Of a stretch of 64,000 nucleotides of DNA, positions 26,095 through 40,412 are shown piece by piece. The stretch is from a virus: the IMG/VR virus record IMGVR_UViG_3300008108_000036; one strand, written 5' to 3'. The notes under the pieces were generated by a model. That model did no database searches, was not told where the DNA came from, and saw only the letters and a program-made list of their open reading frames with translations. Each line of letters begins with the position of its first letter. Positions within the stretch are counted from its first letter, which is position 1. Made by a program: the position numbers and the translations under genes.

Positions 26095-26135
26095 AATAAA
26101 GTATTTAATCAAACCTTTGTAATTTTATACGAGGG

Positions 26136-26207
26136 AGCCGGGTATCGGGGTCGAACCGATGACCTACGGTTTACAAAACCGTCGCACTACCACTGTGCTA
26201 ACCCGGC
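26136..26207 (-). tRNA. tRNA-Thr(UGU)
   Basis: Cloverleaf; ACGGT-TTTGTAA-ACCGT anticodon arm; GGTTCGACCC T arm. Confidence 0.93.
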
Positions 26208-26213
26208 TTAAAA

Positions 26214-26289
26214 TGGTAGCGACGTTGGGACTCGAACCCAATTTGTGTGCTTATGAGACACACCAGACCACCTGGCCTAGCCCATCGCG
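26214..26289 (-). tRNA. tRNA-Met(CAU), initiator-like, atypical D arm
   Basis: C1:U72 mismatch, CTCATAA loop, canonical T loop, encoded CCA; 7-bp D stem with 4-nt loop. Confidence 0.8.
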
Positions 26290-26300
26290 ATTAAAATTAT

Positions 26301-26438
26301 TTAGTTAGAACGGACTGGTTTACAAACGGTTTTGCAATCAGCAGGTTTACAAGAATTTTTTACGCAAGCTTTGGGAGATGTACAAGAAGAAAGAGCAATT
26401 ACAGTTGCTAGCGACAAAATAGCCATGAGTGTTTTCAT
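26301..26438 (-). CDS. Small Cys-rich lipoprotein
   Basis: MKTLMAILSLATVIALSSC signal plus lipobox, followed by a CxxxxC repeat tail. Confidence 0.6.
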   Translation of the reverse strand: MKTLMAILSLATVIALSSCTSPKACVKNSCKPADCKTVCKPVRSN

Positions 26439-26484
26439 GTTTAGTACATTAAAAGATTTTTTTAAAAAGACAACTTCAAAATGA

Positions 26485-27255
26485 TTAGAAAAATTTTGGG
26501 CAACCAGGTTCATTCAATAAGGATGAATGATTTGAGATTAAATAGTCTTTCATTTGGTCGTAGTTTAAAAAACAACTGTCGATTGGTTCGATAAATTGCT
26601 TTGCATACTGTGTGGTTAATTTATGCTCAGAAAAATCATTAATTTCTAATCTATCAAAAATGTTTTTTATCGAATTTCTACTAATAACATCTTCGTATGT
26701 TATGTTTAAATATTTATCAGGAAATTCTTTTGCTTTTCGCAAATAATACCGAGCTCCACAGATATGATCTCTCAAAAAAAGTTCAAACTCGTCAGGATCA
26801 AATACTAGTTTTCTTGCGGTCGGTTCAGTCTTAATTTGAAACCATTTTCCTGTAGCTTTAGCTCTCAACGTCGAGATGTACCTCGCAATGGGATTCCTTA
26901 ATAATATAATTTTTTGATACTTAGGTGAATCAGCTATATACTTTAATAATGTTTGATTTTGATCCCAGAATATTTTAAATCCGATAGCTTTAAATTTAGA
27001 ATTACTACTCAGCTTTACTATTTCGTTCCAATAAGCTAAAGGTTCAGCTTTGTTTCGTTCTTTCCAATTTTGATGTGTACTTCCATGCTGAATTATCCAT
27101 TCCTGATCCGAATATTCTGTATCCGGTTTGTATAATTCATAATAACATTTAATCGAAGGAATACGATCTAATATATCTACCAATAAGGATGAACCTGTTC
27201 TATGCAGAGAAAATATTGCAAATTGTTTTATATCATCTTGATGACTTGTTCCCAT
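26485..27255 (-). CDS. Sulfotransferase (Stf0-like), paralog 1
   Basis: IFSLHRTGSSLL, GFKIF, LLRNPIARYIS, ITYED. Confidence 0.8.
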   Translation of the reverse strand: MGTSHQDDIKQFAIFSLHRTGSSLLVDILDRIPSIKCYYELYKPDTEYSDQEWIIQHGSTHQNWKERNKAEPLAYWNEIVKLSSNSKFKAIGFKIFWDQNQTLLKYIADSPKYQKIILLRNPIARYISTLRAKATGKWFQIKTEPTARKLVFDPDEFELFLRDHICGARYYLRKAKEFPDKYLNITYEDVISRNSIKNIFDRLEINDFSEHKLTTQYAKQFIEPIDSCFLNYDQMKDYLISNHSSLLNEPGCPKFF

Positions 27256-27293
27256 TGTACGAATAATTAAATTAAGCTATTTGAAAGACAACA
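27246..27293. repeat. 48-bp exact direct repeat, copy 1 (promoter + start of sulfotransferase)
   Basis: ttgttcccattgtacgaataattaaattaagctatttgaaagacaaca identical to 28087-28134. Confidence 0.92.
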
Positions 27294-27301
27294 CAAAAAA
27301 G

Positions 27302-28096
27302 CTAGGGAAGTTCTGGGCAACCGGGGTTATTCAATAGAGTCGGATGGTTTGAGATTAAATAGTCTTTCATTTGTTCGTAGTTTACAAAACAACTATCAAT
27401 TGGCTCAGTCGATTGCTTTGCTAAATCTGTAAACATTCTACACTTGGGAGGACAATTGATGGTTAACTTATCGAGAATGAGTTTTATTGATTTTCTACTT
27501 ACAACGTCCTCATACGTTGTAATCAAATATTTATGTGGTTGTTGTTTAGCTAAATGCAAATACCAATTAAAGGATTCATTGTGTTTTTTCAAAAAAAGTT
27601 CAAACTCATCAGGATTAAATATTAGTTTCTTTGTTAATGTTGTATGTTCGTCATCTATTACTTGCAACCATAAACCCGTAGTGATTGCTCTAGTAAATGA
27701 AATAAACCTTGCAATAGGATTTCTTAATAATATAATTTTTTCGTAGTTAGAAGATTTCGCTATAAACTCTAAAAATTTGTCGTGGTGCCCTGCAAATATT
27801 TTAAATCCTACAGCTTTAGTAGATTTATCACTCAATCTTACTATTGTATTCCAAAAAGCTAATGGGTTAGATTTTTTTTGTTCTTCTAATCTACTGTATT
27901 GCTCTATTCCTAGTTTAGATATAATAAGTTTTGTGTGAAGATAGTTGGGATTCAACTCATCCTGGCTGCAATATACTTCGTCGTAACATTGAACGTGATC
28001 AATGTTATCCAATAAACACGTCAAAAGATTCGTGCCTGACCTATGCAAAGAGAATATTGCAAATTGTTTTATATTATCTTGCTGTTTTGTTCCCAT
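27302..28096 (-). CDS. Sulfotransferase (Stf0-like), paralog 2
   Basis: IFSLHRSGTNLL, GFKIF, LLRNPIARFIS, TTYED; clear paralog of 26485..27255. Confidence 0.8.
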   Translation of the reverse strand: MGTKQQDNIKQFAIFSLHRSGTNLLTCLLDNIDHVQCYDEVYCSQDELNPNYLHTKLIISKLGIEQYSRLEEQKKSNPLAFWNTIVRLSDKSTKAVGFKIFAGHHDKFLEFIAKSSNYEKIILLRNPIARFISFTRAITTGLWLQVIDDEHTTLTKKLIFNPDEFELFLKKHNESFNWYLHLAKQQPHKYLITTYEDVVSRKSIKLILDKLTINCPPKCRMFTDLAKQSTEPIDSCFVNYEQMKDYLISNHPTLLNNPGCPELP

Positions 28097-28134
28097 TGTA
28101 CGAATAATTAAATTAAGCTATTTGAAAGACAACA
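28087..28134. repeat. 48-bp exact direct repeat, copy 2
   Basis: Identical to 27246-27293. Confidence 0.92.
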
Positions 28135-28139
28135 AAAAA

Positions 28140-28212
28140 CTACGGAGATAGGACTCGAACCTATAACCCTCAGATCCAAATTCTGATGCACTACCAATTG
28201 TGCTACTCCGTA
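28140..28212 (-). tRNA. tRNA-Gln(UUG)
   Basis: U1-A72, G73; TCAGA-ATTTGGA-TCTGA. Confidence 0.9.
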
Positions 28213-28218
28213 TTAAAA

Positions 28219-28293
28219 TGGCACTCCCAAGGGGACTTGAACCCCTGCTACCTCCGTGAAAGGGAGATGTGCTAACCGCTACACTATGGGAGC
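28219..28293 (-). tRNA. tRNA-Glu(UUC)
   Basis: TCTCC-CTTTCAC-GGAGG; encoded CCA. Confidence 0.93.
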
Positions 28294-28299
28294 AAAAAA

Positions 28300-28384
28300 C
28301 GGAAGAGGAGAGATTCGAACTCTCGGAGACTTGCGCCTCGGCGGTTTAGTAAACCGCTGCAATAGACCACTCTGCCACCCTTCC
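28300..28384 (-). tRNA. tRNA-Ser(ACU), rare A34 anticodon
   Basis: GCGGT-TTACTAA-ACCGC; long variable arm; G73. Confidence 0.88.
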
Positions 28385-28402
28385 TTTTATTTAATTAAAA
28401 TA

Positions 28403-28485
28403 TGCTCATGGAGGGACTCGAACCCACATTCCTTACGGAACCAGATCCTAAGTCTGGCGCGTGCTGCCAATTTCGCCACATGAGC
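28403..28485 (-). tRNA. tRNA-Leu(UAG)
   Basis: CCAGA-CTTAGGA-TCTGG; long variable arm; A73. Confidence 0.92.
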
Positions 28486-28492
28486 TTTAAAA

Positions 28493-28568
28493 TGGTGCTC
28501 GGGGTGGGACTCAAACCCACGATAGCCTGCGTGTAAAGCAGGTACTTTAGTCGCTAAGTTACCCGAGC
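28493..28568 (-). tRNA. tRNA-Val(UAC)
   Basis: CCTGC-TTTACAC-GCAGG; encoded CCA. Confidence 0.9.
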
Positions 28569-28626
28569 TTTGAAAAATAGACCATTTGTTTTGAAATATT
28601 TGGTCTTATTCTCATAAATAATATAC

Positions 28627-29193
28627 ATGCCTAATCTAATTGAATCAGTTTGTCAAAATTGTACTAGTATTTTTTTTCAAAACAAATGCAAAGAAGAGCG
28701 TTTAAAAAAATTCTGTAATCGATCTTGTGCAGCTTCATATAATAACAAGCAAAGAGAGTATAAAAATACAACCTCATTTAAAAGCAACTGTAAAAATTGT
28801 AAAGTCGAGTTTGTGTATTCTTGTCATGCGTCTACTGGAACATATTGCAGTAATAAATGTCAAAGAGATTTTCAATTTCTTAATGAAACTCTTTTAAGAG
28901 CTGAGCAAGGACTAATAAACCAATCCTCGACATTAAAACGTGTAATAGAATTTAAAACAAAGCACAAATGCTTTTGCTGTGGCATTACAGAATGGAACGG
29001 AAAACGTTTAAGTTTGCATTTGGATCACATAGACGGTAATTCTGATAACAATTTTTTAGAGAATTTAAGATTGTTATGTCCAAATTGTCACTCACAAACT
29101 GAAACATTTTGTGGACGGAACATTAAAAACACCAAACGTTCATCTTATAATAAAAGATATAGAATTAAAAAATTAGCTCTACCGCTGAGCTAA
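28627..29193 (+). CDS. Free-standing HNH homing endonuclease within tRNA array
   Basis: Zn ribbons (CQNC, FCNRSC, CKNC, YCSNKC) and LHLDHIDGNSDNNFLENLRLLCPNCHSQT. Confidence 0.92.
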   Translation: MPNLIESVCQNCTSIFFQNKCKEERLKKFCNRSCAASYNNKQREYKNTTSFKSNCKNCKVEFVYSCHASTGTYCSNKCQRDFQFLNETLLRAEQGLINQSSTLKRVIEFKTKHKCFCCGITEWNGKRLSLHLDHIDGNSDNNFLENLRLLCPNCHSQTETFCGRNIKNTKRSSYNKRYRIKKLALPLS

Positions 29194-29200
29194 CTCCGCC
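29176..29200 (-). pseudogene. 5' half of a destroyed tRNA (acceptor strand + D arm only)
   Basis: Reverse complement GGCGGAGTTAGCTCAGCGGTAGAGC, then runs directly into the HNH gene; no anticodon or T arm found nearby. Confidence 0.7.
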
Positions 29201-29211
29201 TATTATAAATG

Positions 29212-29285
29212 TAGACCTAGTTGGACTTGAACCAACGACCTGTTCATTATCAATGAACTGCTCTAACCAACTGAGCTATAGGTCT
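29212..29285 (-). tRNA. tRNA-Ile(GAU)
   Basis: GTTCA-TTGATAA-TGAAC. Confidence 0.93.
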
Positions 29286-29290
29286 GAAAA

Positions 29291-29364
29291 TGGTGCGGGA
29301 TGGGAGAATCGAACTCCCAACCGAAGTTTGGAAAACTCCTGTTTTACCATTAAACTAATCCCGC
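29291..29364 (-). tRNA. tRNA-Gly(UCC)
   Basis: GGAGT-TTTCCAA-ACTTC; encoded CCA; A73. Confidence 0.92.
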
Positions 29365-29367
29365 ATA

Positions 29368-29439
29368 TCGAGTACCTCGGTACTGCCCCGAGTATTTCCT
29401 GGTCCCAAACCAGGCGGATTTCTTTCTTCCTCGTACTCG
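29368..29439 (-). tRNA. tRNA-Pro(UGG), non-canonical D and T loops
   Basis: Perfect acceptor CGAGTAC/GTACTCG, CCTGG-TTTGGGA-CCAGG, T stem CTCGG/CCGAG with loop GGCAGTA. Confidence 0.75.
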
Positions 29440-29489
29440 AAGTTGGTTTATTTATACAATTTGTACATCGAGTTCAAATCTTCCTGAAG

Positions 29490-29574
29490 TGGTGGGTAGT
29501 GCAGGACTCGAACCTGCGAAGCCCGAAGGCAGGAGATTTACAGTCTCCGGTAATTGCCGCTATACGAACTACCC
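29490..29574 (-). tRNA. tRNA-Tyr(GUA)
   Basis: GGAGA-CTGTAAA-TCTCC; variable arm; CCA. Confidence 0.93.
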
Positions 29575-29598
29575 GCAAAATATTGTTTTGTTTAAAAA

Positions 29599-29693
29599 TG
29601 GTGCAAGGTGTGGGAATCGAACCCACGCTCGGCCCACATCTAGGGCACACAGATTATAAGTCTGTCGGTACTATCCAGTTATACTAACCTTGC
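29599..29693 (-). tRNA. tRNA-Ile(UAU) with long variable arm
   Basis: ACAGA-CTTATAA-TCTGT; V arm GCCC-TAGATGT-GGGC; CCA; 95 nt. Confidence 0.85.
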
Positions 29694-29701
29694 AAAAAAA
29701 A

Positions 29702-29774
<73 letters not shown>

Positions 29775-29783
29775 ATTATAAAA

Positions 29784-29860
29784 TGGCGTTCCCAGCTGGA
29801 ATCGAACCAGCAACCTACGCTTTAGAAGAGCGTTGCTCTATCCAGTTGAGCTATGGAAAC
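29784..29860 (-). tRNA. tRNA-Arg(UCU)
   Basis: ACGCT-CTTCTAA-AGCGT; A20; CCA. Confidence 0.93.
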
Positions 29861-29868
29861 GTAGAAAG

Positions 29869-29954
29869 TGGTACTCGGAGAGGGACTCGAACCCTCACGG
29901 TCGTTAGACCAACGGATTTTAAGTCCGTTGCGGCTGCCATTACGCCATCCGAGC
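29869..29954 (-). tRNA. tRNA-Leu(UAA)
   Basis: ACGGA-CTTAAAA-TCCGT; variable arm; CCA. Confidence 0.93.
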
Positions 29955-29970
29955 AAAAACAATGTTAAAG

Positions 29971-30045
29971 TGGCTGGCAAGGTAGGATTCGAACCTACGA
30001 CCAATCGGTTAACAGCCGACCGCTCTACCACTGAGCTACTCGCCA
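29971..30045 (-). tRNA. tRNA-Asn(GUU)
   Basis: GTCGG-CTGTTAA-CCGAT; G73; CCA. Confidence 0.94.
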
Positions 30046-30059
30046 AATTTTTGTTGTAC

Positions 30060-30071
30060 TTTTCAAAGATC
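30060..30071 (-). promoter_or_regulatory. BoxA-like antitermination element in tRNA operon leader
   Basis: GATCTTTGAAAA about 15 nt upstream of the first tRNA of the array. Confidence 0.45.
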
Positions 30072-30217
30072 ATTGTTTGCTAGTTTTGAATTAGCTTTAT
30101 TGTTTGACTACTGTCCGTTATTTACTCTATAAAGGCAACAAAAAATCAAAAAATAAATTAAATTACGGTAAAATAATAAACAGTCGGCTTTTATAGATAA
30201 TGGAGTATAGTTAACAC

Positions 30218-30769
30218 ATGAATATATTTTTAGACATGGATGGTGTCCTTGTTGATTTGTATGGAAAAATTGCGTTAGAAATGTTTAATAAGACTTACTT
30301 GGAACTCACACAAGATGAAATATTAAACGCAAAAGCAATTTGGAAGGACAAAAAGCGTGCTTCAGCTTTTTTTAATAATTTCGGAGGAGTAGAATCATTT
30401 TTTGCTGATTTGCTCGAATTTGAAGACAAAACTCAACAAATCGTAGAAATCGTGTCGGGGTTCGATCCTTTTTATAAAATATGCTCTAAGCCTGCTCAAA
30501 TTGATATAGAAGCATCAAAAAAAGGAAAAATTCGCTGGATTAAAAAATATTTAGTTAAAAATCCTCCAAGCGAAATAATACTGACTCAAAATAAAGCTAA
30601 GTGGGCTATTAGTGAAAGTGGACAGCCTAATATATTAATTGATGATTATGATCCGTATCTTAAAGCTTGGACAGAAAGCGGAGGAATATCAATTAAGTTG
30701 GATTCTATAAATCGTACAACAAATGACATTAAAATAATTTTAACTAATCAGTTATCAAAAATTTTATAA
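30218..30769 (+). CDS. HAD-family 5'(3')-deoxyribonucleotidase (NT5C-like)
   Basis: IFLDMDGVLVD, GKIRWI, ILIDD, W..SGG. Confidence 0.85.
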   Translation: MNIFLDMDGVLVDLYGKIALEMFNKTYLELTQDEILNAKAIWKDKKRASAFFNNFGGVESFFADLLEFEDKTQQIVEIVSGFDPFYKICSKPAQIDIEASKKGKIRWIKKYLVKNPPSEIILTQNKAKWAISESGQPNILIDDYDPYLKAWTESGGISIKLDSINRTTNDIKIILTNQLSKIL

Positions 30770-30779
30770 GGTAGGACTT

Positions 30780-31052
30780 CTAACAATTCCAACCGTATAT
30801 CCATTTTCCTTCAGAATCCTTTTCAATTTCAGTCCACTGGTGCACATTTGTTGTGTTTCCTCTATAAAGTACCATCCACAAAGAAACATTTGTTGTTGTA
30901 GTTATTATCCATTTACATTTAGCCAATGTAAGAACCATGCTTAAAAAATGAACAGCTAGTGCTGATTTTTCAATTAAATGGTCAAATTCGTAATTTCCGT
31001 TATGTACTCCTTTCCACGAGGTTTTATTTAAACACGGCAAATTGCTGTTCAT
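30780..31052 (-). pseudogene. Probable C-terminal remnant of a fucosyltransferase-like glycosyltransferase
   Basis: LAKCKWIITTTTNVSLWMVLYRG resembles GT-B fucosyltransferase C-termini, but the ORF is only 90 aa. Confidence 0.35.
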
Positions 31053-31053
31053 T

Positions 31054-31821
31054 TTAGCTGTATGTTTGAGCTATTCTTTTGCAATTAGTCATTTCGTCGT
31101 TATAATTTAAGTTAAAAAAAATAGTTTCATTTGCTTGTGGAGAGTTTCGTACTACTGTGAAACAATCGTGTAACGACTTGCTGTCGTTTGTTGTATCATA
31201 AGAGAACATCTCTTGACTAATTATTGATAAATTGTTGGCTTTAGTTAAGTTATTAACTAACTCAAACCCTACATCTGGAGATCTCCAGTGTTTGTTATTC
31301 GATGTATTGCAATTTTGCAAATTGCTGTGATGTAAAAACATGGTTCCTCCGGGCTTTAGAGTTCGTTTTGCTTCTTTAATATAGCTTTCTATTACATCCA
31401 ATTGAGAGTGAACTAGCGAATCATAGCTAAATATAAAATCTACCGAATTGTCTTCGGTATGAGTTAATGTTTTTCCGTCATTTAAATAAAAGAAAGCTTT
31501 TTTATTTAAGATGTCGAAATAGAATTGCTGCTCACAATTCTTAATTCCTGTATCGTTAATGTCATAGCCAACGAACTTGTTGCACGTGTTGTTTAAAAAC
31601 CGAGACCACCTACCCCAACCACAAGCTATTTCTACAATGCAGTGTGAATTAATATATTTTCTAATTCTGGGAAATATTGTAGTCCACCATTGAGAGTCGC
31701 TTCCGCCAAAAGCATTGCTCCATCCTTCTCCTCTAAAGGTGTCGCTTCCTGGAGTTGACCACGCTTTTTTATTATTTGCGAGTGTTGTTTCTCCAAGAGG
31801 ATGATTTTGACTTGTGCTCAT
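31054..31821 (-). CDS. Class I SAM-dependent methyltransferase
   Basis: VEIACGWGRW, GYDIN, NDG, DFIFSYDSLVH, LKPGG. Confidence 0.88.
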   Translation of the reverse strand: MSTSQNHPLGETTLANNKKAWSTPGSDTFRGEGWSNAFGGSDSQWWTTIFPRIRKYINSHCIVEIACGWGRWSRFLNNTCNKFVGYDINDTGIKNCEQQFYFDILNKKAFFYLNDGKTLTHTEDNSVDFIFSYDSLVHSQLDVIESYIKEAKRTLKPGGTMFLHHSNLQNCNTSNNKHWRSPDVGFELVNNLTKANNLSIISQEMFSYDTTNDSKSLHDCFTVVRNSPQANETIFFNLNYNDEMTNCKRIAQTYS

Positions 31822-31866
31822 TAATTAATTTAGTTAATAAAAAACAAAAGACAACTTTAATTAAAG

Positions 31867-31939
31867 TGGAGGCAAGGGGATTCGAACCCCTGACATCCAG
31901 CTTGCAAAGCTGGCGCTCTACCAACTGAGCTATACCCCC
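31867..31939 (-). tRNA. tRNA-Ala(UGC)
   Basis: G3:U70; CCAGC-TTTGCAA-GCTGG. Confidence 0.94.
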
Positions 31940-34394: not shown

Positions 34395-35825
34395 ATGATT
34401 ATTTTTGGAATAAACGAAGCTGCTCACGATGCAGGAATAACTGTTATAGAAAACGGACATATTTTATTTGCTGCTCATTCTGAGCGGTACAGCAAAATAA
34501 AAAATGACTGGTTTTTAAATGACGCTATAATTAACGAAGCTTTAAAGTACGGTCGGCCCGATGTAATTGCTTATTATGAAAAGCCTCTATTAAAACAACT
34601 GCGACTACTCATAAGAGGTGGTTTAGGTAAAAAATCTGCATTTCAAAGAAACCCACAAATAAAAAATGTTCCTGTCGTTAATTTTGGACACCATTATTCA
34701 CATGCTTCATCTGGTTATTTCACTAGTAAATTTGATGATGCTCTAATAGTTGTTGTTGATTCTATAGGAGAATTTAACACCACTACTGGCTGGATTGGGG
34801 AAGGAACGTCTATAAAAAATATTTTCAAACAAAATTATCCTTTTAGTTTTGGATTGTTTTACAGCGCGTTCACGCAATTAATTGGCTTAGAAGCTAACAA
34901 AGAGGAATATATATTAATGGGAATGGCTGCGTATGGAAATCCAAACACTTTATACAAAGAAGTAAACGAGTATTTTCCTAATATACACAGTCAAAAATAT
35001 AATTTTCATAAAGGAATTTGGGATTGGAATATACCAATAACAGAAGAAACTAAATTTGATATAGCAGCTGCAGTTCAAAAAACATATCAACAACGTTTAT
35101 TGGAACTCATGCACTTCTTAAAAAAGACTACAAAAAAGAATAAATTGGTGTTTATGGGAGGATGTGCTCTAAACTGCTCTGCAAATACGTTGCTTTGGGA
35201 TTTGTTTGATGATATTTGGATTATGCCAAACCCAGGGGACGCAGGAAGCAGTCTTGGTGCTGCTGCTGCATATTATAAAAAGCACGTTGAATGGAATACT
35301 CCATATTTGGGTTATAACATAGAAGGAGATTATCCGATTCAAAATATCTTAAACGATCTTAATACAAGAGGTATTTCTGCGGTAGCTAATGGTAAAGCGG
35401 AATTTGGACCAAGAGCATTGGGCAACAGAAGCATATTAGCTGATCCAAGAGATCCTTTTATTAAAGACAAAGTCAATGAAATCAAACAACGGGAAAAGTT
35501 CAGACCATTTGCTCCTGTCGTTTTGGAGGAATATGCTAACGAGTGGTTTGATATGAATTTTCCGTCACCTTATATGCAATACGCAACAAAATGCAAACGT
35601 CCTGCAGAAATCCCTTCCGTTGTGCACTATGACGGTACATCCAGAGTGCAAACCGTAAACAAATCGCAGCACTCCGGCTTGTACAATTTACTAAAGCAGT
35701 GGTATGATAAAACGAAGATACCTATTTTGCTTAACACGAGTTTAAACATTAAGAACCAGCCTTTATTAAACGATAAAAACGATGCCGTAGCTTGGAAGAA
35801 ATTTTACAAACGAGGAATCAATTAA
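34395..35825 (+). CDS. Carbamoyltransferase (NodU/CmcH family)
   Basis: HDAG..SERYS, HHYSHA, DSIGE, MGMAAYG, GGCALNC, AEFGPRALGNRSILADPR, REKFRPFAP, HYDGTSRVQTV, LLNTSLN. Confidence 0.93.
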   Translation: MIIFGINEAAHDAGITVIENGHILFAAHSERYSKIKNDWFLNDAIINEALKYGRPDVIAYYEKPLLKQLRLLIRGGLGKKSAFQRNPQIKNVPVVNFGHHYSHASSGYFTSKFDDALIVVVDSIGEFNTTTGWIGEGTSIKNIFKQNYPFSFGLFYSAFTQLIGLEANKEEYILMGMAAYGNPNTLYKEVNEYFPNIHSQKYNFHKGIWDWNIPITEETKFDIAAAVQKTYQQRLLELMHFLKKTTKKNKLVFMGGCALNCSANTLLWDLFDDIWIMPNPGDAGSSLGAAAAYYKKHVEWNTPYLGYNIEGDYPIQNILNDLNTRGISAVANGKAEFGPRALGNRSILADPRDPFIKDKVNEIKQREKFRPFAPVVLEEYANEWFDMNFPSPYMQYATKCKRPAEIPSVVHYDGTSRVQTVNKSQHSGLYNLLKQWYDKTKIPILLNTSLNIKNQPLLNDKNDAVAWKKFYKRGIN

Positions 35826-35958: not shown

Positions 35959-36410
35959 GGGGGTGCCCTGGTTTCGACATATAGTTGAAACTAAAAGCGC
36001 ATGTAGAGGTTAATCGATGGCCTCTTTAAAAATCGATTGAACACTAAACGCAGAAGACAATACTTCTGATCTCTTAGCTGAAGCTGATTACATCTTCAAC
36101 AACGCTGATGAGTTTCTCATCGACGTTGAAGAAGCTTGTGCTCTCGAAGCCTAAGAGCCTAATAGAGGATCCTCTAAATCTATTTTGAAACGCAGAGGTT
36201 TTGATGAACTGTTAGAGATCATAGAAAAACTGATACAGAGGTAGTACAAGACCTCTCACTTGTGCAGGCAGACATAAAAATCGGTTGATACAACCATGCA
36301 GCCTTTTGTCTTTGTCACCGTAAGGTGGCTGAAATGTTGAATGTATCCAAACGTGTGAAGACCTTTTAGCTTAGGTTATATGGACAGGGGTTCGATTCCC
36401 CTCATCTCCA
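35959..36410 (+). ncRNA. ssrA: tmRNA
   Basis: 5' GGGGGTG..GGTTTCGAC; PK1 (AGAGG/CCTCT, AATCGAT/ATCGATT); tag ORF 36050-36154; 3' GGACAGGGGTTCGATTCCCCTCATCTCCA with G3:U70. Confidence 0.93.
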
Positions 36411-36677: not shown

Positions 36678-36685
36678 TATAAATA
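36678..36685 (+). promoter_or_regulatory. T4-type late promoter TATAAATA upstream of lysis cassette
   Basis: Exact T4 late consensus; gp55-like sigma is encoded in the window. Confidence 0.6.
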
Positions 36686-36712
36686 CGAACTTTAACATAA
36701 GTAGTATTTATA

Positions 36713-37393
36713 ATGAGGCATTCGCTACATAAATTAGCTCTTTTAACGTTACTTTTAATAATAGTAACTGGATGCACAATATATACAGAAAAACGCAGCG
36801 AAGCTTTGTCGCAAGCTGTCTATGCTACTTCCAGTAGCATTTTAAACGCTAGAATTGATTTTGCAGCAAAATATGCAGAACAAGCTAAGCGGTTGGCTTA
36901 TGCTCCAAAAAAACAAATCGACATTCTTCCTCTTATAACAGAAGATGTAAAAAAAATTGAGACTGTTAACAGTTCAACAAAAATTACTAGTAACTCTGCT
37001 AAAAAATCGTCCGTAATACCTACTAGCATAATAACAGCAACAACTGTAGATAATCAAAACCAAAAAATAGTACGTTTGGTTATTCCTGAATTTTTAAAAC
37101 ATGCAAAATTATTAATAGAAAATTCAGAAGAATGGAATGAATTAATTAAAAACAAAGAAATAAATCTGCAATTAGAACAAGATAAAGCAAATCTTCAAAA
37201 ACTAGCTCAAGATATTGACGCAGAATTAGCAAAGCAACAAAAATATAATTCGGAGCTACTTAACGAGCTTCACAACCTAAAAACAAAAGTAGCAGAAAAA
37301 CAAGTTACGATTTATAAATTATATATAACGATAGCTGTTTTACTTGGAGCGATTGTTGGAGGAATTTATCTTAGAATGAAAGGAATTTTTTAA
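36713..37393 (+). CDS. Putative unimolecular spanin (lipoprotein with C-terminal TM)
   Basis: Signal/lipobox LLLIIVTG-C, long coiled coil, C-terminal TM LYITIAVLLGAIVGGIYL; upstream of holin and endolysin. Confidence 0.6.
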   Translation: MRHSLHKLALLTLLLIIVTGCTIYTEKRSEALSQAVYATSSSILNARIDFAAKYAEQAKRLAYAPKKQIDILPLITEDVKKIETVNSSTKITSNSAKKSSVIPTSIITATTVDNQNQKIVRLVIPEFLKHAKLLIENSEEWNELIKNKEINLQLEQDKANLQKLAQDIDAELAKQQKYNSELLNELHNLKTKVAEKQVTIYKLYITIAVLLGAIVGGIYLRMKGIF

Positions 37394-37396
37394 AAT

Positions 37397-37828
37397 ATGT
37401 TGTTTAATCTTAAAAATGCTATAACAACTGGATTATCGTTTTTGAGCTCAACGAAAGCTCCGCCTAATACTCCTGAATGCGAAATAGAAAGATTAAAATC
37501 TATAAATCACATGGAGTCAAAAAAATTTTATATAGTAATGACTTCGGTTATTATTCTTGCGTTTTTTTATTTTGCAAGCATAGGTATATTATTTTTAATT
37601 CCTCAAGGAACTCCTGAATTTTTTACAGGATTTGTTACTATTTTTTCTAAAACAATTGAAATTTTATCTATAATAATAGCAGCTTATGTTGGAGCTCAGG
37701 CGGTTGTTGATTTAAAATATGGAAGTAAGTCGAACGTAAGTCTAGAAAGCACCACCCATCAAGAAACTGTAGAAACATTAACAGTTATTCAAACTAATAT
37801 TAAAGAGGAGGATTATGAACTCAAATAA
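37397..37828 (+). CDS. Putative holin (2 TM)
   Basis: ESKKF followed by two TM helices and AYVGAQAVVD; overlaps the endolysin start. Confidence 0.6.
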   Translation: MLFNLKNAITTGLSFLSSTKAPPNTPECEIERLKSINHMESKKFYIVMTSVIILAFFYFASIGILFLIPQGTPEFFTGFVTIFSKTIEILSIIIAAYVGAQAVVDLKYGSKSNVSLESTTHQETVETLTVIQTNIKEEDYELK

Positions 37829-38432
37829 ACCTTCAGAAAATACATTAAGTTTACTTTTACAATATGAAGTAGGTGGTGGTAAGCATTATTACGAAAAATA
37901 TCTTTCCAAATTTACATGGCCAGGAGGAGCTTCAGGACCGACGATAGCAATAGGAGTTGATTGTGCATACTATTCGAAATCGGAATTACAACACATTTTT
38001 AGCTTTTTGCCTGATGAACAAATAAAAATGATTCAGCAAGCTTCAGGAAAAACCGGATTGTCTGGTAAGGAATACACAGCAACATTGAGAGCAAAGGGAA
38101 TTGTAGTGAACTGGGAAGAAGCGCTCCAGATTTTTGAGAATTTAACATGGCCAAAGTTTACTAAATTGGCAGAAAAAACATTTCCTGGTTTAAAAGAGTT
38201 GAAACCTGACGCTTATGGAGCAATAGTTTCTTTAGTGTTTAATAGAGGAACTAGCTTAGTGGGAAATTCTAGAAAAGAAATGGTTAACATTAAAAATCTC
38301 ATTCCTGATAAAAATTACAAAAAAATAGCAAAAGAAATTCGAGCGATGAAGCGTCTCTGGGTAGGAAAAGGATTAGACGGGTTGTTAGAAAGACGTGAAG
38401 CAGAAGCAACATTAATAGAAGCTTGCGTTTAA
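37815..38432 (+). CDS. Endolysin, lysozyme-like (pesticin-C/GH24-related)
   Basis: YEVGGG..TWPGGASGPTIAIGVD, ALVSLVFNRG-like AIVSLVFNRG, GLLERREAEA. Confidence 0.82.
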   Translation: MNSNKPSENTLSLLLQYEVGGGKHYYEKYLSKFTWPGGASGPTIAIGVDCAYYSKSELQHIFSFLPDEQIKMIQQASGKTGLSGKEYTATLRAKGIVVNWEEALQIFENLTWPKFTKLAEKTFPGLKELKPDAYGAIVSLVFNRGTSLVGNSRKEMVNIKNLIPDKNYKKIAKEIRAMKRLWVGKGLDGLLERREAEATLIEACV

Positions 38433-38433
38433 T

Positions 38434-39342
38434 ATGAAAACGATGACTAAAAGCCAGCTAATTTTAGAGAACGAAAAATTGCTAGAAACAATTCATTCGA
38501 GACAAGGCAGTTTAAATAATTTGTCTTCATATCTCATTGAGCTTGAAAGTCAATTAGCTTTAATATTTGCTGCGTCTCCTGATATTATAGTATTTTTAGA
38601 TAAAAACGCTGATATTATTAAAATCAGTGATGCAGCATTTACTATTTTAGGATATACTAGAGCTGAGCTGATAGGTCGCTCATTATGGGAATTTATTTCA
38701 ACAGAAGATTTAAAAGACTCTAAAGAAAAATTCAATCAAATTAAAACCAAGAGCGTATCATATTTTACAGGTAACAATGCTTTTATAAACAATTGGATTT
38801 CCAAAGAAGGCCAAAAAGTACGTTTGGTTTGGCGTTTTTCTTTATGTGATGAAAAAGAAGATAAAGTTATAGGAGTAGCTTCAGATATTTCACAATTTGG
38901 TAATAATCATTTTTATAATTTTAAATTATTGCAAAATGCTGTTAATTCGTCGACAGATGGAATTGTAATTATAGAATCTGCTGAAGAATCTGCAACAGCA
39001 GTCTATGTAAATCAAGCTTACGAAAGAATGATGAACACACCGTCCGAAGAGCTAATTGGAAAATCTTTTTGGAATAACTTAACCAATGAAAGTTTGCACT
39101 CTAGAGCATTTTCTACCATTAAAACGTGTATGTTAAATGGAACAAATTGTGATGTTTTATTGCAATGTCACAAGGCAACCGGAGAGCTATTTTACGCTCG
39201 ATATGCTATTTCTGCAGTAAAAGAAAATAATATAATTGCTCATTTTATAGGAATTATACGAGACATTTCAGAAAAAATAGGAACAAAATACGAATGGTCA
39301 CCGAACTCAGAAAGCGGATTTATACATTTACATCATAACTAA
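38434..39342 (+). CDS. Tandem PAS-domain protein without output domain
   Basis: PAS1 (ASPDIIVFLD..ILGYTRAELIGRS..GVASDIS), PAS2 (SSTDGIVI..YVNQAYERM..ELIGKS..GIIRDISE); N-terminal coiled coil; no kinase/GGDEF. Confidence 0.88.
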   Translation: MKTMTKSQLILENEKLLETIHSRQGSLNNLSSYLIELESQLALIFAASPDIIVFLDKNADIIKISDAAFTILGYTRAELIGRSLWEFISTEDLKDSKEKFNQIKTKSVSYFTGNNAFINNWISKEGQKVRLVWRFSLCDEKEDKVIGVASDISQFGNNHFYNFKLLQNAVNSSTDGIVIIESAEESATAVYVNQAYERMMNTPSEELIGKSFWNNLTNESLHSRAFSTIKTCMLNGTNCDVLLQCHKATGELFYARYAISAVKENNIIAHFIGIIRDISEKIGTKYEWSPNSESGFIHLHHN

Positions 39343-39343
39343 C

Positions 39344-39751
39344 ATGAATACGGAATTTGATAATAATATAGGAAATAGTTATGAAGGAAACGGGTGGTCT
39401 AAATATCAAATGCTCGTGTTGCAGCAATTAAAAGATCATAATGCCGTGCTTCAAAATTTAAACAAAGAAATTGTTGAAGTGAAACAATTAAATGCGGTTG
39501 CTGATGCGGAGTCTAAAATGTGGAAAATAAAAGTAATGTCTGATCTCGAAAGTTTGAGATCGGATGTAGATAAAGAGTTGTACGAAGAGCATGGTATGTA
39601 CAAACGTTTATCTAAAGTTGAGCGTGATTTGGATTTAGATGACCACTTAGCAACTAAAAGCAAGGCAACATTAGCATTATATGGTTCTATTGCTATGTTT
39701 ATTCTTAATGCGTTAATCCAAATAGTTGCTATATATTTAAAAGTAAAATGA
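39344..39751 (+). CDS. Coiled-coil protein with C-terminal TM anchor
   Basis: NGWSKYQMLVLQQL coiled coil; C-terminal hydrophobic helix. Confidence 0.65.
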   Translation: MNTEFDNNIGNSYEGNGWSKYQMLVLQQLKDHNAVLQNLNKEIVEVKQLNAVADAESKMWKIKVMSDLESLRSDVDKELYEEHGMYKRLSKVERDLDLDDHLATKSKATLALYGSIAMFILNALIQIVAIYLKVK

Positions 39752-39960
39752 GTTATTTTGGCTGTAGTATAATAAAAGATCCTGATGTAGATGAGTTGAC
39801 TTCTAAGACAAGTTTGAGAATATTAGAAATTATAGAAAAAAAACATGGACACGAAACCACAACTATTCCTAGCAATCAGATTAATTTCGTTTCTTTTGAA
39901 CAAGCCTTGTTGGAATTAATAACCCATGAGCGAAGTAAAAACAGCTCTAATAAACAATAA
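39748..39960 (+). CDS. Hypothetical protein
   Basis: ATGA overlap with upstream gene. Confidence 0.5.
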   Translation: MSYFGCSIIKDPDVDELTSKTSLRILEIIEKKHGHETTTIPSNQINFVSFEQALLELITHERSKNSSNKQ

Positions 39961-39974
39961 ATAATAGTTTCCTC

Positions 39975-40412
39975 ATGAAGTTGTTTATTGATGCAGCATT
40001 ACCTAAAAAGCAAATAAGATATTTGATGCATCTTATTGCTGTTGATTATAAAGTCACGCAGTTGTCATTTAATAGTCAAGCAAAGTCTCTTGGTGGTTCT
40101 TACAACTTCAATAAAAATAGCATTTTTATTAACAATAAACAACGCAAAAAAACCATGCTCTGCGTGTTTTTTCACGAGTTAGCTCATCATGTTGCAGTTC
40201 AACAAAAAAAATGGATGTCGTATCATGAAGGAACAGATTCTGATATTGCTCCTTCTAAACAATTTGCTATTGAAAATAAAATAGATTTAATAGCCAAATC
40301 ACTTTGGCTTAAATATGTAGACATTAAACAGTGGGGCAATTATCAATTTAGTTACCCAAAAGCAAGAAAAGGTCAGCTTTCAGCTTGGTTAGCAGACTAT
40401 AATTCAATTTAA
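39975..40412 (+). CDS. HEXXH zinc metallopeptidase-like protein
   Basis: GGSY..IFIN..FFHELAHH..E. Confidence 0.65.
   Translation: MKLFIDAALPKKQIRYLMHLIAVDYKVTQLSFNSQAKSLGGSYNFNKNSIFINNKQRKKTMLCVFFHELAHHVAVQQKKWMSYHEGTDSDIAPSKQFAIENKIDLIAKSLWLKYVDIKQWGNYQFSYPKARKGQLSAWLADYNSI

What the first reader, a model, noticed from the sequence alone, without database searches (positions are those of the whole stretch)
36678..39751. Lysis cassette with an embedded tandem-PAS sensor: candidate environment-gated lysis system
Seen: after a TATAAATA late promoter come a lipoprotein with C-terminal TM, a 2-TM holin-like gene and a lysozyme-type endolysin. One nt after the endolysin stop is a 302-aa protein made of a coiled coil plus two PAS domains with no kinase, GGDEF or HTH output; one nt after that is a coiled-coil, C-terminally anchored membrane protein. 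Known: PAS domains sense small ligands, redox or light, and holin timing is tuned by antiholins (T4 RI/RIII). Inference: the PAS protein may bind the holin or the anchored partner and couple host metabolic state to lysis timing. I know of no described system like this.
Basis: partly seen in the sequence, partly recalled or inferred. Interest (0 to 1): 0.85.

Follow-up and report, generated by a model that had tools for sequence, protein, structure and literature searches.

The report
Phage lysis cassette with PAS/LOV-derived sensor
An uncultured freshwater T4-like phage carries, inside its host-bursting gene set, a sensor-type protein (two PAS domains, the second a decayed blue-light LOV domain) that is always paired with a small membrane-anchored protein resembling a known holin helper, which suggests an undescribed way of tying the moment of lysis to a cellular or light signal.

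Summary
Five tightly packed + strand genes encode a lipoprotein with a C-terminal TM helix (u-spanin architecture), a 2-TM holin-like protein, a PF00959 endolysin, a 302-aa coiled-coil/PAS/PAS protein with no output domain, and a tail-anchored coiled-coil protein.

New here:
- The second PAS domain is LOV-derived. 82 of 134 relatives keep the adduct Cys, many with the full NCRFLQ flavin signature. The window's copy has lost every polar flavin contact and is probably blind to light.
- The tail-anchored protein follows the PAS gene in 31 of 31 loci. It is a distant relative of XhlA/SPP1 gp24.1, the single-TM partner of two-component holins (hhalign 80-94%; control 1%).
- The endolysin slot beside the pair holds three or four unrelated enzymes in different phages.

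A lysis link is therefore well supported by context. Binding, timing control and the signal are inferred only. TATAAATA occurs at chance frequency and is not conserved. No paper describing this was found. The scan noted a LOV-bearing version on another genome (e1-5765577).

The parts
36678..36685 (+).
   Evidence: Present, but it occurs at chance frequency (11 seen, 11.6 expected) and is not conserved in orthologous loci.
36697..36703 (+). ATAAGTA, one copy of a conserved [C/A/T]TAA[G/A]TA motif ending 5-10 nt before the start codon; candidate late-promoter element of this phage group
   Evidence: Seen at the same place in 9 of 11 orthologous loci. It is not enriched window-wide (65 seen, 93 expected), so it is positional conservation only.
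36713..37393 (+). 226-aa lipoprotein with a C-terminal TM helix: unimolecular-spanin architecture
   Evidence: Cys21 of the lipobox and the C-terminal 'YLRxKGIL' TM are invariant in 11 orthologues (A4). Hydropathy. No Pfam or PHROG family above threshold.
37397..37828 (+). 143-aa two-TM holin-like protein
   Evidence: Two TM segments are conserved in 16 orthologues (A3). It always lies directly upstream of the endolysin slot. No PHROG hit and no relation to the SPP1 gp26 holin.
37815..38432 (+). 205-aa endolysin, phage lysozyme family
   Evidence: PF00959 at 28.9 bits, above the 22.3 cut-off; endolysin PHROGs. It is the only PF00959 match in two related phage contigs. In relatives it is replaced by Peptidase_M15_4, by PG_binding_1+M15_4, or (convergent) by GH108.
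38434..39342 (+). 302-aa N-terminal helix + PAS-A + LOV-derived PAS-B + conserved C-terminal tail; no output domain
   Evidence: Pfam; AF2 model; 132 full-length relatives; PAS-B best matches solved short-LOV proteins (5luv, E 3e-12).
38449..38574 (+). N-terminal helix (aa 6-47) with the invariant ELESQLAL..ASPD junction
   Evidence: It is the most conserved segment of the family.
38575..38889 (+). PAS-A (aa 48-152)
   Evidence: PF00989 hit. W121, W133 and F135 are invariant.
38950..39273 (+). PAS-B (aa 173-280), degenerate LOV domain
   Evidence: The family consensus GKNCRxLQ / xNxKKxG / FYN reads GKSFWNNL (39058-39081) / QCHKATG / FYA in the window.
39289..39339 (+). Conserved C-terminal tail YEWSPNxExGF
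   Evidence: W288, G295 and F296 are invariant in A1.
39344..39751 (+). 135-aa tail-anchored coiled-coil protein, XhlA/gp24.1-like; conserved N-terminal motif YEGNGWSKYQ (39380-39409) and hydrophobic helix (39671-39739)
   Evidence: A2. It is adjacent to the PAS gene in 31/31 loci. hhalign to the XhlA alignment gives 79.6% (A2) and 93.9% (A5), against 1.3% for the control.
39748..39960 (+). 70-aa soluble ORF overlapping the previous gene by 4 nt (ATGA); possible last gene of the unit
   Evidence: Homologues lie at the same place in nine loci. Function unknown.

Best explanation
The stretch is the lysis cassette of an uncultured freshwater T4-like phage of a Gram-negative host. The gene order is u-spanin-like lipoprotein, two-TM holin-like protein, lysozyme-type endolysin, then a two-gene module.

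That module is a cytoplasmic PAS/LOV-derived protein followed by an XhlA-like tail-anchored protein. The most likely working is as follows:
- The tail-anchored protein cooperates with the two-TM protein in permeabilising the inner membrane, as XhlA does with XhlB and SPP1 gp24.1 does with gp26.
- The PAS protein, dimerised through its N-terminal helix, docks on the cytoplasmic N-terminal part of the anchored protein (the conserved GNGWSKYQxLVLQQLxDH motif).
- By docking it holds back or releases the anchored protein, and so sets the lysis time.

In many relatives the second PAS domain is a canonical LOV domain, so the input there would be blue light or flavin redox state. In this window that pocket is destroyed. 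This phage's copy either responds to another cue through PAS-A or acts as a signal-blind structural partner.

Shown: gene content, domain identity, the LOV ancestry and its decay, the strict pairing, the changing endolysin neighbours, and the remote XhlA likeness.

Inferred: binding, the effect on timing, and the input signal.
For: Pairing: the anchored protein follows the PAS gene in 31/31 loci with downstream DNA, from 100% down to 34% PAS identity. Still more remote relatives of the anchored protein are preceded by other PAS proteins: a 295-aa PAS-LOV in L047, a multi-PAS protein in L048/L049, and an 88-aa PAS_3-like protein in L044.

Lysis context: between the two-TM gene and the PAS gene lie PF00959 lysozyme (16 loci), or Peptidase_M15_4 with or without PG_binding_1 (11 loci). 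In L031 the pair converges on a two-TM homologue plus a GH108 endolysin on the other strand. The cassette endolysin is the only copy of its family in a complete 217-kb relative and in two partial ones.

XhlA likeness:
- XhlA is the top recurring Pfam family among 119 superfamily members (8 members, best E 9.4e-5).
- XhlA, DUF2951 and DUF7201 are the nearest named Atlas clusters.
- hhalign gives 93.9% (E 1.6e-7) and 79.6% against an XhlA/gp24.1 alignment.
- Controls give 1.3% and 0.2%.

Precedent: XhlA/gp24.1 (one C-terminal TM) and XhlB/gp26 (two TM) flank or precede the endolysin and are only lethal together (PMC6316719). All three PBSX genes are required (PMC5589764).

LOV: a family member matches solved short-LOV proteins and YtvA at E 1e-26. 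The adduct site is Cys in 82 of 134 relatives.

Coupling: 1-nt spacers and a 4-nt overlap join the genes. Contigs from an RNA library bridge three gene junctions, which is only a weak hint of co-transcription.
Against: - No experiment and no structural prediction supports contact between the proteins.
- In the distant clade and its near kin (L006, L007, L037, L039, L047) no lysis gene was recognised within about 3.5-5 kb.
- In the T4-like clade the downstream metalloprotease-like, 74-aa and exonuclease genes are just as syntenic, so collinearity explains part of the linkage.
- The window's own anchored protein has no Pfam XhlA hit. Superfamily hits are all below the gathering score, and a direct HMM hit on one homologue is only 13 bits.
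- The two-TM protein matches no known holin family.
- The window's PAS-B lacks Cys, both Asn, both Arg and the Gln of the flavin pocket. It also diverges faster than PAS-A in this clade, so no signal can be named for this phage.
Confidence: 0.5

Rival explanations
1. The PAS protein and its anchored partner form a membrane-associated sensor module with a job other than lysis, for example superinfection exclusion, control of a host membrane process, or late-stage host takeover. It merely sits beside the lysis genes in one collinear phage lineage.
For: Five loci of the distant clade and its kin carry the pair without recognisable lysis neighbours, flanked by HNH endonuclease and unknown genes. 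The downstream non-lysis genes are equally syntenic in the T4-like clade. The XhlA likeness is remote and below the Pfam threshold.
Against: The pair stays flush with the endolysin slot while the enzyme family changes three times. It also re-appears next to a fourth endolysin type in the opposite orientation. The partner's best and specific remote match is a holin partner.
Confidence: 0.25
2. In this particular phage the PAS protein is a decaying remnant. The LOV sensor has died, and the protein is either dispensable or kept only as a scaffold for the anchored protein, so nothing is 'environment-gated' here.
For: All polar flavin contacts are replaced: GKSFWNNL, QCHKATG, FYA, GIIRD. In the window's clade PAS-B diverges much faster than PAS-A (90 vs 66%, 73 vs 54%). 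The reverse holds in the clade with intact NCRMLQ.
Against: The reading frame is intact in all variants at 71-100% identity. The N-helix, PAS-A and C-tail remain 80-93% conserved in the clade. PAS-B still scores as a folded PAS/LOV domain.
Confidence: 0.2
3. The PAS protein regulates late gene expression, acting as an anti-sigma or co-activator-like factor rather than on membrane proteins.
For: PAS-only proteins can act through protein-protein contacts. The tandem PAS fold resembles the PpsR, ARNT and DosP sensor parts.
Against: It has no DNA-binding or sigma-related domain. Its strict pairing is with a membrane-anchored protein, not with a transcription factor.
Confidence: 0.05

Closest known systems
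Two-component holins of Bacillus phages: PBSX XhlA/XhlB/XlyA and SPP1 gp24.1/gp25/gp26 (PMC6316719, PMC5589764)
   Same: A small coiled-coil protein with one C-terminal TM helix, a two-TM protein and an endolysin lie together, with the two membrane proteins flanking the endolysin as in SPP1. The 135-aa family shows a specific remote profile match to XhlA/gp24.1.
   Different: The host here is Gram-negative (a spanin is present). The anchored protein is longer and has a conserved N-terminal GNGWSKYQ motif that XhlA lacks. The two-TM protein is unrelated to gp26. A PAS/LOV gene is always inserted directly before the XhlA-like gene.
Short LOV proteins and YtvA (PpSB1/PpSB2-LOV, W619_1-LOV 5luv, 7yx0, 7r5n, 2pr5)
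   Same: They are the best solved matches of PAS-B. Many family members have GXNCRFLQ, the two Asn and the Arg residues. Like short LOVs, they have no enzymatic output domain.
   Different: The phage proteins carry an extra N-terminal helix, a PAS-A domain and a conserved C-terminal tail. The I-beta Gln is replaced across the family. The window's copy has lost the whole flavin signature. They are phage-encoded and paired with a membrane protein.
Plant PAS/LOV protein PLP (PMC10291033, abstract seen)
   Same: It has a PAS domain followed by a LOV domain and no output domain, and it acts through binding another protein: it inhibits GDP-L-galactose phosphorylase, and blue light deactivates it.
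   Different: It is eukaryotic, and homology beyond the shared domains was not tested here. Its partner is a soluble enzyme, not a membrane protein.
T4 lysis inhibition: holin T with antiholins RI (periplasmic) and RIII (cytoplasmic)
   Same: Both are accessory proteins in a T4-like phage that would tune holin triggering in response to a signal. RIII acts from the cytoplasmic side. This comparison rests on my own knowledge.
   Different: No sequence relation was seen. T4's lysis genes are scattered and the signal is superinfection. A search for the holin T family found nothing, but the control genomes were also silent, so the result is uninformative.
Unimolecular spanin (T1 gp11 type)
   Same: The 226-aa protein has an N-terminal lipoprotein Cys and a C-terminal TM helix in one polypeptide within a lysis cassette.
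   Different: It is larger and has a predicted coiled coil before the TM. Homology to gp11 was not tested.

Membership tests
LOV domain (flavin-binding PAS subclass) | PAS fold with best similarity to LOV proteins | tested here: met
   The window's PAS-B best matches the short LOV 5luv at E 3e-12. A family member, P0075, reaches E 1.3e-26.
LOV domain (flavin-binding PAS subclass) | GXNCRFLQ motif with the adduct-forming Cys | tested here: not met
   The window has GKSFWNNL. The adduct site is Cys in 82 of 134 relatives, Gly or Ala in 27 and Phe in 16 (the window's clade).
LOV domain (flavin-binding PAS subclass) | Flavin-contacting Asn (G-beta), Asn (H-beta, 'FWN'), Arg residues and Gln (I-beta) | tested here: not met
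   The window has QCHKATG, FYA and GIIRD. Canonical relatives have xNxKKxG and FYN, but also lack the I-beta Gln.
LOV domain (flavin-binding PAS subclass) | Binds FMN or FAD and shows a blue-light photocycle | not testable with these tools
   Needs purified protein and spectroscopy.
XhlA / SPP1 gp24.1 family (PF10779) | Small protein with a cytoplasmic coiled coil and a single C-terminal TM helix | tested here: met
XhlA / SPP1 gp24.1 family (PF10779) | Pfam model match above the gathering score | tested here: not met
   The window protein has no hit. Among superfamily members 8 of 119 hit, all below 34.7 bits, best E 9.4e-5. One homologue scores 13.3 bits.
XhlA / SPP1 gp24.1 family (PF10779) | Profile-profile similarity to bona fide members | tested here: inconclusive
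   hhalign gives 79.6% (A2) and 93.9% (A5). Controls give 1.3% and 0.2%. The match is specific but short of certainty.
XhlA / SPP1 gp24.1 family (PF10779) | Encoded with a two-TM holin and an endolysin | tested here: met
   Not met in five distant loci.
XhlA / SPP1 gp24.1 family (PF10779) | Needed together with the two-TM holin for membrane lesion | not testable with these tools
   Needs co-expression experiments.
Phage lysozyme (PF00959) endolysin | Pfam match above the gathering score | tested here: met
   28.9 bits against a 22.3 cut-off.
Class II (two-TM) holin | Small protein with two TM helices and a charged C-terminus, next to the endolysin | tested here: met
Class II (two-TM) holin | Homology to a described holin family | tested here: not met
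   No PHROG hit, no Pfam hit, and hhalign to SPP1 gp26 gives 0.8%.
Unimolecular spanin | Lipobox Cys at the N-terminus and a TM helix at the C-terminus, in a lysis cassette | tested here: met
   Cys21 and the C-terminal TM are invariant in 11 orthologues.
Unimolecular spanin | Homology to T1 gp11 | not tested
   No gp11 sequence was fetched.
T4 RI/RIII antiholins | Sequence relation to RI or RIII, and presence of holin T | tested here: inconclusive
   PF11031 (holin T) was not found in three related contigs, but the controls were silent too. RI and RIII were not searched.

The most novel reading that the evidence does not exclude
The family is the first phage-encoded blue-light (LOV) photoreceptor. 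In freshwater phages it gates lysis through an XhlA-like holin partner, so that progeny are released at a favourable time of day. The window's phage represents a lineage that has since given up light sensing while keeping the module.
Probability: 0.25. Interest if true: 0.9.

Novelty: new variant of a known kind. Interest (0 to 1): 0.72.

Why it matters
Lysis timing decides phage fitness. The known accessory regulators (antiholins such as lambda S107, T4 RI/RIII, P1 LydB) read membrane energisation or superinfection; that list rests on my own knowledge. A dedicated cytoplasmic PAS/LOV sensor wired to a holin partner would be a new class of input, either light or flavin redox state.

It would also give a molecular handle on the diel patterns of viral lysis seen in surface waters. 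I found no natural phage photoreceptor of this type in the literature searched.

The family is common: more than 130 sequence clusters, from lakes and rivers in at least eight studies. Its members range from canonical LOV to Cys-less and fully degenerate forms. That range offers a natural series for testing what the module does with and without its sensor.

The XhlA-like link also extends two-component holins from Gram-positive phages to large phages of Gram-negative hosts.

Tried and rejected
- **Complex prediction.** PAS protein (A1) with the anchored protein (A2): verdict 'no answer', score 0.00. This is neither for nor against binding.
- **Cultured phages (INPHARED).** blastn of the cassette and tblastn of the PAS protein found nothing. 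The nearest gp46 in a cultured phage is 28.5% identical.
- **Fold search.** Foldseek of the whole model against PDB gave only generic tandem-PAS matches (DosP, ARNT, PpsR, MmoS).
- **Two-TM protein.** PHROGs and Pfam gave nothing. The Atlas gave only unnamed viral clusters. hhalign against the SPP1 gp26 holin gave 0.8%.
- **Fused PAS + anchored protein.** The profile search of 1.84 billion representatives gave 120 hits, all but one 48-180 aa and none carrying PAS. The single 780-aa hit (E 2e-5) matched in seven repeated stretches and was not examined further.
- **Holin T (PF11031).** No match in three related contigs, but the controls were silent, so this is uninformative.
- **TATAAATA as promoter.** Chance frequency and not conserved. 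The degenerate MTAARTA motif is not enriched window-wide either.
- **Whole genome of the window.** Not held.
- **RNA evidence.** RNA-library contigs cover only parts of the stretch. The uncovered parts mean nothing, and DNA carry-over cannot be excluded.
- **Neighbours in the distant clade.** Pfam on the neighbours of the pair in L006, L007, L037 and L039 gave HNH endonuclease and unknowns only.
- **Literature.** Seven full-text searches looked for a natural phage LOV/PAS lysis regulator and found none.
Full report
**1. What is in the sequence**

The window is low-GC DNA (about 31%) of a large phage. It carries 16 tRNA genes and a tmRNA, UvsW- and gp46-type genes, a Lon-like protease and a carbamoyltransferase. 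The protein it encodes lies on a 173-kb contig. No whole genome is held. Nothing in the cultured-phage collection resembles the stretch. The best gp46 match, a Synechococcus myophage, is only 28.5% identical.

Near-identical DNA occurs in lake, river and other freshwater metagenomes of at least eight studies.

- The 226-aa product has a lipobox Cys21 and a C-terminal TM helix.
- The 143-aa product has two TM helices.
- The 205-aa product passes the Pfam threshold for phage lysozyme.
- The 302-aa product has two PAS domains and nothing else.
- The 135-aa product has one hydrophobic helix, three residues from its end.

The AF2 model of the PAS protein (pLDDT 73) shows a long N-terminal helix, PAS-A, a linker, PAS-B and a short tail.

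The TATAAATA at 36678 is real. It is no more frequent in the window than chance and is absent at the same place in relatives. Instead, 9 of 11 orthologous loci have [C/A/T]TAA[G/A]TA ending 5-10 nt before the start codon.

**2. The PAS protein is a LOV-derived family**

The protein database holds 132 relatives of about 300 aa, all with the same PAS-PAS make-up and nearly all from metagenomes. In their alignment (A1) the second PAS domain shows the LOV signature: DGIVITD, IVYVNxAF, GKNCRxLQ.

A member with the full motif matches solved short-LOV proteins, YtvA, aureochromes and phototropins at E 1e-26 to 1e-15.

Of 134 sequences, the adduct site is:
- Cys in 82;
- Gly or Ala in 27, with FLQ and both Asn kept;
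- Phe in 16;
- other residues in the rest.

On a tree, both the distant clade and several inner clades have the canonical set. The window's clade is the most degenerate, with GKSFWNNL / QCHKATG / FYA / GIIRD. The window's PAS-B still matches LOV proteins best (5luv, E 3e-12), but none of the polar flavin contacts is left.

Within this clade PAS-B diverges faster than PAS-A (for example 66 vs 90%, 54 vs 73%). In the clade with NCRMLQ it is the better-conserved domain.

The inference is that the ancestor bound flavin and that the window's copy most likely does not. The N-terminal helix (ELESQLAL..ASPD), PAS-A (W121, W133, F135) and the tail (YEWSPNxExGF) are conserved throughout.

**3. The partner gene**

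In every one of 31 loci with DNA downstream of the PAS gene, a homologue of the 135-aa protein follows directly. This holds down to 34% PAS identity. Some loci are duplicates of one contig, so about 26 are independent.

A profile of this protein finds 120 representative clusters among 1.84 billion proteins. All but one are 48-180 aa and none is fused to PAS. They share an N-terminal NGWxxYQxLVLxxLExH motif, a coiled coil and a C-terminal hydrophobic helix.

Even remote members are preceded by PAS proteins of other lengths:
- a 295-aa PAS-LOV with GKNCRVLN in L047;
- a multi-PAS protein with a Cys-to-Ser LOV-like domain in L048/L049;
- an 88-aa PAS_3-like protein in L044.

One remote member, in L045, is not preceded by a PAS gene.

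**4. What the partner resembles**

Several independent lines point to XhlA:
- Scanned one by one, the superfamily's commonest Pfam match is XhlA (8 of 119, all sub-threshold). Ordinary coiled-coil families score at most four members each.
- The Atlas lists DUF7201, DUF2951 and XhlA clusters as the nearest named ones.
- I fetched SPP1 gene 24.1, collected its PF10779 relatives and aligned them (A6).
- hhalign gives 79.6% (E 1.5e-5) for the close family and 93.9% (E 1.6e-7) for the superfamily, over the coiled coil and the TM helix.
- The spanin-like family, which also has a coiled coil and a C-terminal TM, gives 1.3%. The two-TM family gives 0.2%.

XhlA/gp24.1 is the single-TM partner of the two-TM holin XhlB/gp26. 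The genes flank the endolysin in SPP1. Each protein alone is harmless, and together they kill and lyse (PMC6316719; PMC5589764).

The window's order (two-TM protein, endolysin, [PAS], XhlA-like protein) is the SPP1 order with a PAS gene inserted. The two-TM protein itself is not related to gp26 or to any PHROG.

**5. Link to lysis beyond collinearity**

In the T4-like clade the order spanin-like, two-TM, endolysin, PAS, anchored protein is kept. So are the downstream metalloprotease-like, 74-aa and exonuclease genes, and synteny alone is therefore weak evidence.

Three observations are stronger:
- The endolysin slot holds PF00959 lysozyme in 16 loci. In 11 it holds Peptidase_M15_4, with or without PG_binding_1, while the PAS gene stays flush with it.
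- In L031 of the distant clade the pair converges, stop to stop, on a two-TM homologue plus a GH108/PG_binding_3 endolysin on the other strand.
- The cassette enzyme is the only member of its family in a complete 217-kb relative and in two partial ones.

Against this, no lysis gene was recognised near the pair in L006, L007, L037, L039 and L047.

**6. Expression**

Contigs from a freshwater RNA library bridge the spanin/two-TM, two-TM/endolysin and PAS/anchored-protein junctions. The last of these comes from a related strain. DNA carry-over cannot be excluded, so this is a weak hint only.

**7. Reading**

The best-supported picture is a lysis cassette whose membrane-lesion part has two components. 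The second component, XhlA-like, comes with a dedicated cytoplasmic PAS/LOV protein.

The conserved N-terminal motif of the anchored protein is absent from the much shorter XhlA proper. That motif and the conserved helix and tail of the PAS protein are the obvious candidates for a contact. This is inference: the one complex job gave no verdict.

For canonical-LOV relatives the input would be blue light or flavin redox. For this window no input can be named.

**8. Comparison with what is known**

No paper on a natural phage LOV or PAS lysis regulator turned up in seven full-text searches. The library lacks most subscription journals.

The scan itself has noted a LOV-bearing version on another genome (e1-5765577). 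It has also noted several membrane-anchored PAS proteins beside lysis genes in unrelated phages. These are unverified leads, not evidence.

**9. Verdict**

- It is a new variant of a known kind: a lysis cassette with an undescribed sensor-type accessory module.
- The more radical reading, phage photoreceptor-gated lysis, remains open and testable.

Noticed in passing
window 36697-36703 and the same place in L001, L002, L004, L008, L010, L023, L029, L032: A conserved [C/A/T]TAA[G/A]TA motif ends only 5-10 nt before the start codon of the spanin-like gene. If it is the late promoter of this phage group (cyanomyophage late promoters are said to read CTAAATA; from memory), the mRNA would be nearly leaderless.
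   Followed up: partly
L008:4361-5038, L012:4539-5045, L014:2138-2830, L031:7269-7763 (-): The endolysin was replaced non-orthologously within one conserved cassette: PF00959 lysozyme, Peptidase_M15_4 alone, PG_binding_1+M15_4, and GH108+PG_binding_3.
   Followed up: yes
window 39748-39960: A 70-aa soluble ORF overlaps the anchored-protein gene by ATGA and is conserved at that place in nine loci. Its function is unknown, and it may belong to the unit.
   Followed up: partly
window 26133-31939 and 35959-36410: An array of 16 tRNA genes includes Ser(ACU) and a long-arm Ile(UAU), and ARAGORN calls a tmRNA with an acidic tag. Other first-stage notes have already flagged these.
   Followed up: no
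window 8930-11437: An 835-aa Lon-like ATP-dependent protease (phrog_4871, E 2.7e-255) is encoded by the phage.
   Followed up: no
window 34395-35825: A Nol-type carbamoyltransferase (PF02543/PF16861; phrog_1601) lies just upstream of the tmRNA and the lysis cassette.
   Followed up: no
window 39975-40412: A 145-aa protein with weak SprT/IrrE/DUF6782 metallopeptidase matches is conserved downstream of the cassette in all T4-like relatives.
   Followed up: no
L048:3-962 and L049:155-814: A remote relative of the anchored protein is preceded by a protein with at least three PAS domains. Its middle domain is LOV-like, with Ser in place of the adduct Cys (GNSSHMLL).
   Followed up: partly
L039 (DYOK01000188.1, binned as Acetofilamentum sp., sulfidic cave): A canonical-LOV member (RQNCRILQ) with its partner lies on a 5-kb contig binned into a bacterial MAG from a cave sample. 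It is probably a phage contig, and a dark habitat would be odd for a light sensor.
   Followed up: no
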